Assembly (NCBI RefSeq): GCF_009914755.1
Contig: NC_060931.1
Strand: one strand, 5' to 3'
Origin: the human T2T-CHM13v2.0 reference genome, Homo sapiens
Length of the DNA: 64,000 nt
Shown in pieces: positions 16,063 to 31,566 of the stretch (positions are counted from its first letter, which is position 1; every line of letters starts with the position of its first letter). A program made the translations under genes and the position numbers. Below the pieces are notes generated by a model, which was not told the origin of the DNA, did not search any database, and was given only the letters and a program-made list of their open reading frames with translations.

Positions 16063-17139
<1,077 letters not shown>

Positions 17140-17140
17140 G

Positions 17141-17276
17141 GGCTGGGCACGGTGACTCACGCTTTTAATCCTCATACTTTGGGAGACCCAGGCAGGAGGA
17201 TCACTTGAGGCCAGAAGTTCGAGACCAGCCTGGACAATATGGTGAAATCTCATCTCTACTAAAAATACCAAAATTA
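17141..17276 (+). mobile_element. Alu left arm
   Basis: Left monomer ending at the A-rich linker, into which the next Alu inserted; no right arm follows. Confidence 0.88.
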
Positions 17277-17578
17277 GGCCAGGCACAGTGGCTCAAGCCT
17301 GTAATCCCAGCACTTTGAGAAGCTGAGGTGGGTGGATCACGAAGCCAGGAGTTCAAGACCAGCCTGGCCAAGATAGTGAAACCCCATCTCTACTAAAAAT
17401 ACAAAAAAAAAAAAAAAATAGCCAGGAGTGGTGGTGGGTGCCTGTAATCCCAGCTACTCAGGAGGCTGAGGCAGAGAATTGCTTGAACCCAGGAGGCAGA
17501 GATTGCAGTGAGCCAAGATGGCGTCACTGCACTCCAGCCTGGAAGACAGAGTGAGACTCCATCTCAAAAAAAAAAAAA
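17277..17578 (+). mobile_element. AluS inserted in the linker of the previous Alu
   Basis: Full Alu; TSD aaaatac(c/a)aaaattag on both sides. Confidence 0.93.
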
Positions 17579-17646
17579 TACAAAAATTAGTTGTTAGTTT
17601 AGTTGCTGCCTAAAAGCAAGACTAGGCTCTCATGGAGGTACAATGG

Positions 17647-17924
<278 letters not shown>

Positions 17925-18764
17925 AGGCGGTGTCGGGGGGAAGAAGTAAAATGGACAGCAGCAAACCACAGGTGTGATAGGAGAGAATACTGAGCTGAGA
18001 TCAGTCTCCTAAAATTTGAATCGGATTTCAGGATCATTCATTTATCTGACTGTCAAGAATGCCTCTGAACAGGAGGAAGAATTTGGGGAGAGGGTGGGGT
18101 TTGTTGAAAGGGCACCGAGAAGGGAAGGGGGTGGTACCCAAACAATTTGTTTACATAATGTTTTTTGGACCTAAAATATGTAGAAAAGTACTTTGAAACT
18201 AAAGTACTGTACTGAAGTTTAATATTTTTCTTATTGCTTGCCTATTCTCCCTCCCAGATAATTTACAGAGGGCACTAAAGCTGATCCCCTGGGAGCTTCA
18301 GAGTTTAATGACTTCGCCTGACGATTTCCTATTCTTTTCCACAAGGTGCTAAGTCAAATTATGGCCAAATTACCAATCGCATGGTAATTCAGCTTCTAAA
18401 TATATTTTGTAGAGTGTTTCCAAAAGTTAAAAAAAAAAAAAACTTTACCTAAATTGTTTTTACTTGCTTCACCTTAAATCAGTTATTCGGTTCCTTTGAA
18501 GAACATGTTGCTTTAGCAACCCCCAAAGTGAACCCAGATACCCAGGACTACTGATTGTTACATCAGAGTTTTTGAAAACGCCAACACTGGAAACAGGCCG
18601 ACAGTTAAGGAGAGGCAGGCCTCAAACTAAAGCAGAACCTTCTCAAAACTACTTATATTTCAAGAGATGGATTAAGCGAAAAGAGCTGTACAAAGAAGCC
18701 ATTGTCTATGCGCCTGTTATATGCAAGGCACTGCACTCCCTTGTCACTTGTTAATTTACAAGAA

Positions 18765-19032
18765 GACTCGCGGGTCCAAGGAAAGGGAGAGGGGAACAGG
18801 TGCAAGGTTTGTGGAGGGCGGCAAACTGCACTCCACGTGCCGCGGGGCTGCGCTTGCGAAGACCAGGGTTCTGATGCCTGGCGCCGGCTGCCAGGTAGGG
18901 GCGCGCATCCTGCGCAGTTGCCGCGCGCGGCCTCCTCCAGCTTCAGGCCGGGCCAATCAGGAGGCGGGCGGGAGGGGGCACGGCGCCGCGAGGGGGCGGG
19001 GCCGCGTCGGGCTTTGCTGTCTGCTGGCCAGC

Positions 19033-19035
<3 letters not shown>
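18765..19035 (+). promoter_or_regulatory. Small CpG island with promoter architecture (orphan)
   Basis: About 28 CpGs in ~250 bp (hand count); CACGTG 18834, GCGCAT/TGCGCA near 18903-18916, GGCCAATCAG 18951, GGGGCGGGGC 18993. Confidence 0.75.
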
Positions 19036-19326
<291 letters not shown>

Positions 19327-19327
19327 C

Positions 19328-20258
19328 TAGCATGAGTTGAATTGTGTCCCCTCAAATAATCCATATGTTGAAGTCCTAACCCTCAATACCACAGAATGTG
19401 ACCCTATTTGGAAACAGGACTGTTGCAGATATAATTGGTGATAATGAGGTCAGGCTAGAGTAGGGTTGACCCCTAATAAAATATGACTGGTTTCCTCATA
19501 AGAAGGGAAACTTTAGACACAGACACATACAGGGAGAATGCCATGTGAAGAGACAGGCAGAAATCAGAGTGACGCTTCTATAAGCCAAATACTGTGCTGG
19601 ACCCATATTAACCTCAACAGGGATGGCACCAGGTTCAAGAAGTTGAAGAAGAGACCCAGAGCCAGCAAACGAGACCCCGTGAGACACAGAGTTTTATCAG
19701 CTGGAAACTTACATACAGAGCGGTTCCATGGTGGTGAGCTGGGCGGGAGAACTGCCACTGCTTGTAAGAAGCATGCAGTTTACATAGCATTTTACCTTAG
19801 CACCCTCCCCCTAACTACCTGTACCTGGCAACCTTCATTTAACTCAAAACAAAGAGCCTCAATCCCCTGCATAGCCTACATTTCATGGGACAGGCTTGGG
19901 GGACAGTCCAATGTTCCTCACGGATAAGGAATAAGTCTCTGGTTTGGCCGCTCCTTAGATTCCTTAGATTTTGTAACTCCAAACACACATTCAGGCGCAT
20001 CTGCCATGTAGGCTCATTCTCAATGTAAGCTTAAGTCAAGTTATCATTGTCAGGTGCATCTACCATACTCTAAGGAATGCCAAAATTGCTAGCAAATCAT
20101 CAGAAGCTAGACAAGAGGCTTGAAACAGATTCTCAAAGCCCTCACAAGGAACCAAGCCTGGACACTTCTAGCCTCTAGAACTGTAAGACACTATATATCT
20201 GTTGTTTAAGCCACCCAGTTTGTGGCACTTTGCTATGGCAACCCTAGAAATTAATACA
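19328..20258 (+). mobile_element. MLT1B/C MaLR LTR, split by an LTR47-like element
   Basis: 'ttgaattgtgtcccctcaa...tatgttgaagtcctaacc' start, 'ccctagaaattaataca' end. Confidence 0.88.
19590..20069 (-). mobile_element. Solo LTR, LTR47-like (ERVL), copy 1
   Basis: Minus strand starts '.GTATGGTAGATGCACCTGACAATGATAAC'; homologous to 39513-40002; degenerate 5-bp TSD ccaaa/ctaag. Confidence 0.8.
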
Positions 20259-29845: not shown

Positions 29846-31566
29846 CTCCCAAATTCTGTAGCCCTACTTTCTGTTTCTTAACATGCTTCTAGCATAACAG
29901 CTATAATTTGCTTCTCACAGATCCTTTGCATCTTTAAAGTTGGGCAAGTTACCTAGAAGTTTGGTAAAAAGAAAATATAAAGTAACTCAAAAAATATTTT
30001 TGAATGCCTATTAGTTGCTGGGTAGTGGGCTAGGCACTGAGATTATGTAGATGAAACACAAAAGTGATAACATAGTGCTTCACTCAATATTACACCTCTG
30101 GGGGCTGAGTTATCTCTGCTCCCAAGATATCTTCACTCTGCTCCCAAGAATAAATTCCCTGTCCATACTGGATCTTGTAGGAAGGGTAAAAGATAGTCTT
30201 TTTCCCTGTGCTTCTTATTGACAAGTCTCAGTCCTAAGGCTACAAGGCAGCTCCCATATATCTTGTTTTTTTTTTTTTCCTTCTGAAGATCCACTGGAGC
30301 CTCTTATGAAGATCCCTCACTGGCTGCCCTAACATGCCAGGACTTCACAGGTGACTAGGAAAATAGGTAACCCCCCACAACACCCTCCCTGTAGTCATAC
30401 AATTTTAATGTCACAGTATGTTTTTATATGTTGTTGGTTGTTTATTTTTTCTCCCTAGATGCCCAGAAGGGTGGATCACAAGATTGTGAATTTGACTTTC
30501 ACTCTAGCACTCTGTACAAGAAAAACTGTATCTGGTAGAGACATGAAGTTATTTTAAATGGGAAAATAAATGATTAGTAAAATGATAGTTATTTTAATTT
30601 TCACTAGAAAAGATAAGACACTTAAATAAAGAGGGAGACTTTCCATCTTTTTGGGAGAGCAAATATGAGGTTGATTTAAAATTTTTTTTAAAAGCCCCAG
30701 CCATGAAACTTACTCTAAACATAACAAATTTGCATTTCCATTTCCAATTTAGCCTTATAGTCCTGAAAACATTTCTCCTTCCAAAGATTTTTGGTATTTC
30801 ATCTGCTACTAAACAACATGCTGCCGGATAATTAAAGAGCCACATTTGGGGTGTTTTCAAGAATCTCCGTGTGTTCCTGGGATGGTTCCACAGAACTTCA
30901 GATTACATCGTCTGTTATACATTGTTAAAGGGAATTGTTGAAATCAGAGACGTCCATTGAGCCCAGAAAGAACCAGAGGAGCAACAATAATAGCTGGATG
31001 CTATAAATGCCTCAGTATTTGAACTCATCTTTCAATCATTGCACTCACCGTAGGTAGAATATTCAGCAAAAGGACGTTTGCCACAGAACCATCATCTGTT
31101 TCTCACTCTGCAGTGTCTGACAGTGAGTGAGATCGGCTCACTTTGATACTGAATGTGTTGGTTGGAGATAATTAATTCCCAGCCTGTGTGAGTTAATCAT
31201 TGTTTCCCCACTTTTCTCAGCTTTAATCAGACTCCCATGAGCCTTCCACTGAGCATGCTCACAAGAGCATTCACGTGCCCCTTGTTATTGCTGTCAAATC
31301 CCGTATGCGAAAGGAATCTACTTTACAGAACGACAGCACAGCATTCTTCACTTAACAGCAACTAGATTCTACTATTCAATTTATGGACTAAAGTTGACAG
31401 ATATAGCCAATTGGCCATTGATAATAGTACAACATACAATAAAATTATATTTTAAGACAGTGCCAACTTGAGTACCTTTCTTCCATATAAACAATTCACA
31501 AGGTCCCTCATGGAGGAGGAACACTGTTTTCTGATTATCCTGTAATTGGTACAAAATATTTCACTA

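What the first reader, a model, noticed from the sequence alone, without database searches (positions are those of the whole stretch)
18765..19060. Orphan CpG-island promoter cut off at about its start site and fused to an AluY
Seen: the only CpG-dense unique sequence in 64 kb, with E-box (18834), NRF1-like GCGCAT/TGCGCA (18903-18916), full NF-Y GGCCAATCAG (18951) and Sp1 GGGGCGGGGC (18993). It stops abruptly at ~19035. Established: CCAAT usually lies 60-100 bp upstream of the start, which places initiation at about 19015-19055. Inference: a housekeeping-type promoter separated from its gene, now able to drive Pol II into an Alu that has lost its Pol III A box, or to act as a lineage-specific lncRNA promoter or enhancer. 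CpG retention implies recent arrival or germline hypomethylation.
Basis: partly seen in the sequence, partly recalled or inferred. Interest (0 to 1): 0.75.

Follow-up and report, generated by a model that had tools for sequence, protein, structure and literature searches.

The report
Stray copy of FAM221A gene promoter
The CpG-rich block is the front half of the FAM221A gene's promoter, copied about 750 kb along chromosome 7 some 15-28 million years ago and ending against a shortened Alu, so it is a promoter-like island with no gene behind it: a small duplication of a known kind.

Summary
Window 18765-19035 is the only CpG island in 64 kb (271 bp, GC 0.72, CpG o/e 0.83, 28 CpG), and all four motifs sit at the stated coordinates.

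It is not native sequence. Window 17591-19037 is a 1.45-kb intrachromosomal duplicate (1355/1456 identical, 93%) of chr7:23818016-23819480, 752 kb upstream. That source is the 5' flank plus the upstream ~55% of the CpG-island promoter of the chr7 FAM221-family gene (FAM221A; the name is recalled).

The copy stops 22-34 bp before the parental ATG, inside the zone where the CCAAT box predicts initiation. It joins, through a scrambled microhomology zone, an AluY-type element that lacks its first ~41 nt and has no target-site duplication.

A third, inverted copy (window 16873-18620, 96.8%) lies at chr7:23.726 Mb, abutting a CLK2 processed pseudogene. It lacks the island and derives from the window copy.

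The orphan island holds as many CpGs as its parent (28 each, 22 shared). Given its age (~14-28 My), this test cannot show hypomethylation.

Promoter or enhancer activity is untested here; the hub lists a RefSeq enhancer feature at 18900-19459.

It is a new member of a known kind, of modest interest.

The parts
17591..19037 (+). Duplicated segment: a copy of G000:C7:23818016-23819468/80, the 5' flank and upstream half of the CpG-island promoter of the chr7 FAM221-family gene.
   Evidence: BLAST gives 1355/1456 identities (93.06%) over window 17591-19027. MAFFT extends a decayed match to about 19037.
17644..17926 (+). Older Alu (AluS-like by recall) lying inside the duplicated segment and shared with the parent locus. 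It was therefore inserted before the duplication.
   Evidence: It is aligned in all three copies. Window-parent divergence is 26/283.
18765..19035 (.). CpG-island fragment: the upstream ~55% of the parental island, which spans about 23819200-23819700.
   Evidence: 271 bp, GC 0.72, o/e 0.83, 28 CpG. Window and parent differ at 21/247 positions. Each has 28 CpG, of which 22 are shared.
18834..18839 (.). CACGTG E-box. It is private to the copy; the parent has CATGTG.
18903..18916 (.). GCGCAT..TGCGCA palindrome with a 2-nt spacer, so not the canonical NRF1 spacing (recalled). The parent reads GCGCGT here, and the difference falls at a CpG.
18951..18960 (+). CCAAT box inside the longest run identical to the parent in the island (40 nt ending at 18979).
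18993..19002 (+). GC box GGGGCGGGGC. The parent has a GGGGCGGG core here with different flanking bases.
19015..19042 (.). Junction zone where homology to the parent decays (9/23 mismatches over 19015-19037) and overlaps the first Alu bases. This is microhomology, not a clean break.
   Evidence: sequences read
19035..19293 (+). 5'-truncated Alu (AluY-type by recalled diagnostics) from about position 42 to its A-rich tail at 19274-19293. It has no target-site duplication.
   Evidence: Rfam gives sub-threshold SRP and mir-1268 matches here. In the TSD test, 1879/2000 shuffles scored as well.
17143..17590 (+). Acceptor-side left flank. An Alu left monomer (17143 to about 17277) is interrupted in its A-rich end by a full Alu (about 17278-17574). 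That Alu is flanked by its own 16-nt duplication (17262-17277 and 17575-17590, 15/16 identical). The duplicate starts at the next base.
   Evidence: Read.
16873..18620 (+). Stretch copied a second time, inverted, to G000:C7:23725872-23727627 (copy 3). It comprises 0.7 kb of the window's own Alu flank plus the first 1.03 kb of the FAM221A-derived segment, without the island.
   Evidence: 96.8% over 1,740 columns. The Alu is intact in the window and truncated in copy 3.

Best explanation
The block is the 3' end of a 1.45-kb duplicative copy of the FAM221A 5' flank and of the upstream half of its CpG-island promoter.

History. The segment was copied 752 kb down chr7 roughly 14-28 My ago. It landed next to an Alu cluster. 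It ends in the parental start-site zone, 22-34 bp before the ATG, at a scrambled microhomology junction with a 5'-truncated AluY that has no target-site duplication. About 6-13 My ago, part of the new locus (without the island) was copied again, inverted, to a site 90 kb upstream of FAM221A.

What is shown: the paralogy, the donor, the direction of both copying steps and the junction anatomy.

What is inferred: how the copy was made. I favour a DNA-level event in cis, meaning break repair or replicative template switching between nearby loci, with the Alu cDNA joined either in the same event or soon after with loss of the downstream part.

What the relic does now is also inferred. It keeps the CCAAT and GC-box core and full CpG density. 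On general knowledge that CpG-dense, factor-bound DNA stays unmethylated wherever it lies, I put about even odds that it is a hypomethylated island with weak bidirectional promoter or enhancer activity. The other half of the odds is that it is silent. There is no gene for it to drive within 120 kb on the + strand.
For: - Paralogy. Searching the whole genome with 18700-19040 gives 2 places, the window and C7:23819144-23819476 at 90%. The full alignment is 1355/1456 identical. It was one of two rows left after my filter (length 350 or more, or identity 92% or more) when the window was compared with 40 kb around the paralogue. The other row was a 72.6% Alu match.
- Donor. The parental sequence runs on without a break into ATG..MERLTLPLGGAAAVDEYLEYRR plus a GT donor. 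That exon joins in frame to an exon 4.2 kb downstream that matches Pfam FAM221, 110 bits against a cut-off of 25. Two more FAM221 exons follow on the same strand.
- Direction. Both ends of the segment are continuous unique or exonic DNA in the parent, but abut Alus in the window.
- Copy 3 shares the window's Alu flank and the 17590/17591 junction. The Alu is whole in the window and cut in copy 3.
- Order of events. Over about 1,030 three-way aligned sites there are 46 parent-private, 12 window-private and 10 copy-3-private differences.
- CpG count. The island has 28 CpG in each copy, 22 shared and 6 private to each.
- No TSD. For segment plus Alu, 534/2000 shuffles scored as well. For the Alu alone, 1879/2000 did.
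- Activity. The hub lists a RefSeq enhancer feature at 18900-19459.
Against: - The gene name FAM221A is recalled. The tools show only a FAM221-family gene at that place.
- No outgroup genome was available. Ages rest on assumed neutral rates (1.0-1.5e-9 per site per year, recalled), and the empty site could not be seen.
- The mechanism is open. I cannot tell whether the copy once extended into exon 1 and was cut back by the Alu, or whether the Alu came with it.
- Nothing here measures methylation, chromatin or transcription.
- The CpG bookkeeping has little power. CpG-to-TpG/CpA differences read as losses number 3 in the window and 2 in the parent within the island, against 4 and 3 in the flank. 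These are my reading of the listing.
- I could not see which assay underlies the RefSeq enhancer feature. It also covers the Alu and 170 bp beyond.
- The start-site zone itself is the most damaged part of the copy (9/23 mismatches) and is then replaced by Alu. This argues against efficient sense initiation.
Confidence: 0.9

Rival explanations
1. Two steps. A larger DNA duplication of the FAM221A 5' region, possibly including exon 1, arrived first. A later AluY insertion then deleted everything downstream of about 19037 (Alu insertion-mediated deletion, or non-classical Alu insertion at a break).
For: The Alu is 5'-truncated, has an intact A-tail, has no TSD and joins through microhomology. These are the hallmarks I recall for this class. 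Passages of PMC5056899 give only the counts (24 insertion-mediated deletions since the human-chimpanzee split) and state that Alu elements repair breaks by microhomology.
Against: No trace of FAM221A exon 1 or intron 1 lies anywhere else in the 64-kb window (with the filter stated). By recalled CpG and non-CpG decay rates the Alu is about as old as the duplication, so the two cannot be ordered. The scenario also needs the same kind of coincidence a second time at copy 3.
Confidence: 0.4
2. One step, coupled to a retroelement. During target-primed reverse transcription of an Alu RNA, the nascent cDNA end switched by microhomology onto the FAM221A promoter region, as nearby DNA or nascent RNA. 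It copied 1.45 kb and was then joined to the target. Copy 3, next to the CLK2 retrocopy, would have arisen the same way.
For: - Two of two duplications in this small family end, on the same side and in the same orientation, at the 5' end of a retro-copied sequence. These are the AluY at about 19037 and a spliced CLK2 retrocopy at the copy-3 end that matches window 18620, with 3-6 nt of shared bases at the junction.
- Sequence is scrambled within about 25 nt of one junction in each event.
- The Alu's age is similar to that of the duplication (rates recalled).
Against: - No significant TSD flanks either composite. For the window composite, 534/2000 shuffles scored as well. For copy 3, 547/2000 did, the candidate duplication being 10/12 identical.
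- The untranslated parts of the CLK2 retrocopy differ from CLK2 by 4.75% (32/673), against 2.6% (45/1728) between window and copy 3. Fisher p = 0.0096 over all sites and p = 0.054 over non-CpG sites. The retrocopy therefore looks older than copy 3.
- Donors lie within 0.85 Mb of acceptors in both events. That is not expected for switching onto free cellular RNA.
Confidence: 0.25
3. A native orphan CpG-island promoter of the locus, for example an alternative start of lncRNA LOC107986777, that only resembles a housekeeping promoter.
For: It lies inside the span of the minus-strand lncRNA, and only 1 of its 16 isoforms is listed by the hub. A RefSeq enhancer feature overlaps it.
Against: A 1.45-kb collinear 93% match to the FAM221A flank includes a shared Alu. 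The boundaries fall at Alu junctions in the window only. This does not exclude that the copy was later adopted as a start site.
Confidence: 0.03
4. An assembly artefact, or a processed (RNA-derived) FAM221A pseudogene.
For: None beyond the paralogy.
Against: The copies differ by 5.7% at aligned positions, with a consistent three-way tree. That is not a collapsed or misplaced identical contig. The copy contains only sequence upstream of the coding exon. It has no exon-exon joins and stops before the ATG.
Confidence: 0.01

Closest known systems
Orphan CpG islands (Illingworth et al. 2010, PMC2944787; I saw the search listing and the start of the abstract only)
   Same: A CpG island remote from the annotated start sites listed for the window, with promoter-type motifs.
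   Different: Going by its title and my recollection (the part of the abstract I saw does not say so), that class was defined by unmethylated state, H3K4me3 and initiation, and many members are conserved between mouse and human. This one is a primate-age duplicate of a known gene's promoter, and its chromatin state is untested.
Partial (promoter-only) segmental duplication
   Same: An intrachromosomal copy of at least 1 kb at 90% identity or more, with Alu at both acceptor-side boundaries. It carries regulatory DNA without the gene body.
   Different: It is very small (1.45 kb). The donor boundaries are not in Alus, so Alu-Alu homologous recombination does not explain it. It spawned a nested secondary copy.
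Alu insertion-mediated deletion and non-classical Alu insertion at double-strand breaks (Callinan 2005 and Srikanta 2009, as cited in PMC5056899; passages read)
   Same: A 5'-truncated Alu with an A-tail, no TSD and a microhomology junction.
   Different: The pre-insertion allele is unknown, so a deletion is not demonstrated.
L1-mediated template-switch chimeric retrocopies, such as U6-L1 or U6-Alu chimeras (recalled; no paper read)
   Same: A 5' part of foreign origin joined head-to-tail to a 3' retroelement that carries the poly(A).
   Different: Those chimeras have TSDs and a defined small RNA as the 5' part. Here there is no TSD, and the 5' part is 1.45 kb of unspliced promoter-flank DNA from a locus in cis.
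SVA_F1, the MAST2 CpG-island exon fused to the 5' end of SVA (recalled)
   Same: A CpG-island promoter fragment of a host gene sits at the 5' end of a non-autonomous retroelement.
   Different: SVA_F1 is a spliced exon that amplified as a family. Here the fragment is upstream DNA, and the island is found at only 2 places in the genome, parent and window. It did not become mobile.

Membership tests
CpG island (Gardiner-Garden and Frommer criteria, recalled: at least 200 bp, GC at least 0.5, o/e at least 0.6) | Length, GC content and observed/expected CpG | tested here: met
   271 bp, GC 0.72, o/e 0.83
Segmental duplication (at least 1 kb, at least 90% identity; recalled convention) | Length and identity of the paralogous alignment | tested here: met
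   1,456 columns, 93.06%
Segmental duplication | Not explained by a high-copy repeat | tested here: met
   The unique part 17930-18700 is found at 3 places genome-wide, and 18700-19040 at 2. The tool warns that only the best candidates are scored.
Orphan CpG-island promoter | Remote from annotated transcription starts | tested here: met
   Hub gene table: the only listed exon in the window is 31049-31392, on the minus strand. The other 15 isoforms were not seen.
Orphan CpG-island promoter | Unmethylated, H3K4me3-marked and initiating transcription | not testable with these tools
   No epigenomic or transcript data are available. CpG counts equal those of the parent, but the test lacks power.
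Processed pseudogene of FAM221A | Contains exons joined without introns | tested here: not met
   The copy ends 22-34 bp before the ATG and holds only upstream DNA, including an old Alu.
L1-mediated chimeric retrocopy | Target-site duplication flanking the whole chimera | tested here: not met
   534/2000 shuffles match as well.
L1-mediated chimeric retrocopy | Poly(A) at the 3' end of the 3' partner | tested here: met
   A-rich tail at 19274-19293
Alu insertion-mediated deletion / non-classical insertion | 5' truncation, absence of a TSD and junction microhomology | tested here: met
Alu insertion-mediated deletion / non-classical insertion | Loss of target DNA relative to the pre-insertion allele | not testable with these tools
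   No other primate genome is available.
Mobile composite family of the SVA_F1 type | Several genomic copies sharing the same fusion junction | tested here: not met
   The 18700-19040 query gives only the window and the parent.

The most novel reading that the evidence does not exclude
Both nested duplications in this 0.85-Mb neighbourhood were made by one recurrent process. In it, the free end of a retro-copied cDNA (an AluY once, a CLK2 mRNA copy once) primes error-prone copying of a nearby chromosomal segment before ligation. Retrotransposition would thereby disperse host promoters in cis and seed orphan CpG islands.
Probability: 0.15. Interest if true: 0.6.

Novelty: new member of a known kind. 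Interest (0 to 1): 0.3.

Why it matters
It gives one orphan CpG island a concrete, dated origin: a promoter-only duplicate of a known gene, cut in its start-site zone.

This makes it a natural experiment on whether a half CpG-island promoter keeps its unmethylated, factor-bound state for tens of millions of years without a gene. The parent serves as a built-in control, with 21 discriminating positions in the island.

Practically, reads from the FAM221A promoter and from this locus can be confused in methylation, ChIP and CRISPR off-target work.

The nested second copy next to a CLK2 retrocopy offers a small test case for how retroelement insertion and local duplication are linked.

Tried and rejected
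- Rfam scan of 18000-20000 at E up to 1. It gave 4 matches, none reaching its gathering score. Three lie in the Alu (mir-1268, Metazoa_SRP, mir-3135), and one weak '6A' match lies at 18400-18453. Nothing falls in the island, so there is no known structured RNA there.
- Target-site duplications. None of four boundary pairs beat shuffles: copy 3 composite 547/2000, segment plus Alu 534/2000, Alu alone 1879/2000, from the left Alu monomer 1699/2000.
- Alu-Alu homologous recombination as the duplication mechanism. Rejected because the donor boundaries are not in Alus.
- Copy 3 as the first acceptor. Rejected because it lacks sequence that the window shares with the parent (18621-19037), and its flanking Alu is cut where the window's Alu is whole.
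- Recent gene conversion as the reason for CpG retention. Rejected for the island, which is the most diverged part (21/247).
- Literature. 'LOC107986777' gave 4 papers, which from titles and the abstract openings I saw are GWAS or SNP-association studies; I did not open them. 'FAM221A' plus 'promoter' plus 'CpG island' gave 6 papers; the one I opened (PMC5888497, passages) concerns a CRISPR off-target site only. 'CLK2P1' gave 3 papers, none opened. I found nothing in print on this duplicate in these three searches. Subscription journals are not covered.

Full report
**1. Observation**

Window 18765-19035 is a true CpG island by the usual criteria: 271 bp, GC 0.72, o/e 0.83, 28 CpG.

I scanned 1,276 windows of 200 bp and printed the 25 richest. 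All windows with 11 or more CpG lie between 18701 and 19001, peaking at 23 CpG. The best elsewhere have 10 CpG and lie in a repeat-masked Alu stretch. The whole window holds 540 CpG against 2,715 expected from composition.

The island gives way to Alu sequence at about 19035. The Alu runs to an A-rich tail at 19274-19293. It aligns to full-length Alus only from about position 42 onward, so its first ~41 nt are missing.

Rfam finds nothing in the island. Three of its four sub-threshold matches are Alu-derived; the fourth is a weak '6A' match at 18400-18453.

**2. What it is**

A search of the window's own assembly with 18700-19040 finds two places: the window, and chr7 (contig C7) 23819144-23819476 at 90%.

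The full alignment runs from window 17591 to 19027 against 23818016-23819468. It has 1355 identities in 1456 columns (93.06%) and 22 gap columns. I compared the whole window with 40 kb around the paralogue and kept rows of at least 350 columns or at least 92% identity. That left this alignment and one 72.6% Alu-cluster match.

In the paralogue the sequence continues without interruption into an ATG at 23819502. That ATG opens MERLTLPLGGAAAVDEYLEYRR, followed by a GT donor. This exon joins in frame to an exon at 23823775-23823999 that matches Pfam FAM221 (PF14753) at 110 bits against a cut-off of 25. Two further FAM221 exons lie at 23828521 and 23830655 on the same strand.

The donor is therefore the promoter of the chr7 FAM221-family gene. 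I recall that gene as FAM221A.

The parental island spans about 23819200-23819700, so the copy carries its upstream ~55%.

The parental CCAAT lies 107 bp before the ATG. The copy's homology ends 22-34 bp before the ATG. That is 70-80 bp after the CCAAT, inside the zone where a CCAAT box predicts initiation.

**3. Boundaries and direction**

In the parent both ends of the segment are continuous with unique DNA (left) and with exon 1 (right).

In the window the left end (17591) follows directly on an Alu left monomer. That monomer had already been split by a full Alu carrying its own 16-nt duplication (17262-17277 and 17575-17590, 15/16 identical).

At the right end, the last 23 aligned bases have 9 mismatches, against 21/247 for the island as a whole. 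They overlap the first Alu bases, so the junction is a scrambled microhomology zone.

No target-site duplication flanks the Alu alone (1879/2000 shuffles scored as well). None flanks segment plus Alu either (534/2000).

The parent is thus the source and the window the acceptor.

**4. A third copy**

The unique part 17930-18700 finds a third place, C7:23725872-23726564 on the minus strand, at 98%. Extended, window 16891-18620 matches 23725872-23727609 at 96.8% over 1,740 columns. A gapped stretch takes the match back to about 16873.

Copy 3 contains 0.7 kb of the window's own Alu flank and the 17590/17591 junction. It lacks 18621-19037 and so lacks the island.

The flanking Alu is whole in the window and cut in copy 3. 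Copy 3 therefore derives from the window locus.

Over about 1,030 three-way aligned sites there are 46 parent-private, 12 window-private and 10 copy-3-private differences, plus 1 site where all three differ. This fits the order parent to window, then window to copy 3.

Copy 3's other end joins, with 3-6 shared bases, the 5' end of a spliced retrocopy of CLK2.
- The retrocopy forms 13 exon blocks against C1:154401431-154411931, with 68 mismatches in 1,830 columns.
- Its best match among solved structures is CLK2 at E = 1e-253.
- Its 3' end runs into seven extra bases, an Alu right arm and A21.

**5. Ages (inference)**

I assume 1.0-1.5e-9 substitutions per site per year (a recalled range).
- Window to parent: 5.7% over all sites and 4.3% over non-CpG sites. 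This gives about 14-28 My.
- Window to copy 3: 2.6% over all sites and 1.9% over non-CpG sites. This gives about 6-13 My.

The untranslated parts of the CLK2 retrocopy differ from CLK2 by 4.75% (3.4% at non-CpG sites). That exceeds window to copy 3 (Fisher p = 0.0096 over all sites, p = 0.054 over non-CpG sites). It is indistinguishable from window to parent (p = 0.38).

**6. CpG bookkeeping**

In the island each copy has 28 CpG, of which 22 are shared and 6 are private to each. In the 1.17-kb flank each copy has 22, of which 14 are shared.

From the listed sites I read CpG-to-TpG/CpA differences as follows. These are counted as losses without an outgroup, except in the flank up to 18620, where copy 3 polarises them.
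- Island: 3 on the window side and 2 on the parent side.
- Flank: 4 on the window side and 3 on the parent side.

The orphan copy has therefore not decayed faster than its active parent. But even at the flank's loss rate, only about 4 of 28 losses would be expected. The comparison cannot separate a methylated from an unmethylated history. Age alone explains the retention.

The island is the most diverged part of the duplicate. Recent gene conversion from the parent therefore does not explain the CpGs either.

**7. Motifs**

- The CCAAT box sits in the longest identical run of the island, 40 nt ending at 18979.
- GC-box cores are present in both copies.
- CACGTG is private to the copy; the parent has CATGTG.
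- The GCGCAT half-site differs from the parental GCGCGT at a CpG. The pair has a 2-nt spacer in both copies, which by recall is not the canonical NRF1 arrangement.

**8. How the copy arose (inference)**

Alu-Alu homologous recombination is excluded by the donor boundaries.

Two readings remain.
- (a) A larger DNA duplication was later cut back by an Alu insertion-mediated deletion. The Alu has the hallmarks I recall for that class. The passages I read (PMC5056899) give only the counts of such events and state that Alu repairs breaks by microhomology.
- (b) A single event joined the Alu cDNA and a template copied from the FAM221A locus.

For (b): both duplications of this family end on the same side at the 5' end of a retro-copied sequence. 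Both also show scrambled bases within about 25 nt of a junction.

Against (b): there are no significant TSDs, and the CLK2 retrocopy is apparently older.

Donors and acceptors all lie within 0.85 Mb. This favours a DNA-level mechanism in cis over switching onto free RNA.

I give (a) 0.4 and (b) 0.25. The remainder goes to other break-repair histories.

**9. What it does (inference)**

Shown: an intact CCAAT and GC-box core with full CpG density. The start-site zone is damaged and replaced by Alu. No annotated gene follows for more than 120 kb on the + strand (hub table). A RefSeq enhancer feature lies at 18900-19459 (hub), but I could not see which assay it comes from.

Inferred: the relic most likely persists as a small, factor-bound and probably hypomethylated island with weak bidirectional promoter or enhancer activity. 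I put this at about even odds against silence.

**10. Comparison and verdict**

It meets the tested criteria for a CpG island and for a small segmental duplication. It fails those for a processed pseudogene, for a TSD-flanked chimeric retrocopy, and for an amplified composite of the SVA_F1 type, because the island occurs at only 2 places.

It is a new member of a known kind: an orphan CpG island created by partial duplication. My three literature searches found nothing in print on it.

Interest is modest.

Noticed in passing
L010/L011 = G000:C7:23723877-23727627 (minus strand): Composite locus reading, in order: inverted copy of window 16873-18620, then a near full-length spliced CLK2 retrocopy, then 7 extra bases, an Alu right arm and A21. 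A candidate 12-nt flanking duplication is 10/12 identical but does not beat shuffles (547/2000).
   Followed up: partly
L010 8413-9960 (minus strand): The CLK2 retrocopy keeps a 515-codon frame without stops through the whole kinase domain (residues 121-514 align to CLK2 105-498, E = 1e-253). The N-terminal coding part is in another frame, and a stretch of the RS-rich region is missing.
   Followed up: partly
window 18510-18764: This tract is almost identical between window and parent (2/255 mismatches), against 29/583 just upstream (Fisher p = 0.002) and 21/247 in the island. The cause may be constraint on both copies, a low mutation rate, or an old conversion tract. It remains unexplained.
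   Followed up: partly
window 19015-19037 and window 16873-16891 (copy 3, L011): Each duplication has one junction with locally scrambled sequence. The first shows 9/23 mismatches. The second shows three small deletions within about 20 nt. This is reminiscent of error-prone synthesis near breakpoints.
   Followed up: no
window 17760-17780 versus L004 8190-8215: The A-rich linker of the shared old Alu is a plain A-run in the window and copy 3 but an ACAC-type dinucleotide run in the parent. A microsatellite was born or lost after the duplication.
   Followed up: no
window 19126-19177: A sub-threshold Rfam mir-1268 match (68 bits against a gathering score of 83) lies inside the Alu. It is an Alu-derived resemblance, not evidence of a miRNA gene.
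   Followed up: no
window 16760-16832: An AT-rich simple repeat (TATATAAA-type) lies directly upstream of the Alu cluster that flanks the duplicate.
   Followed up: no
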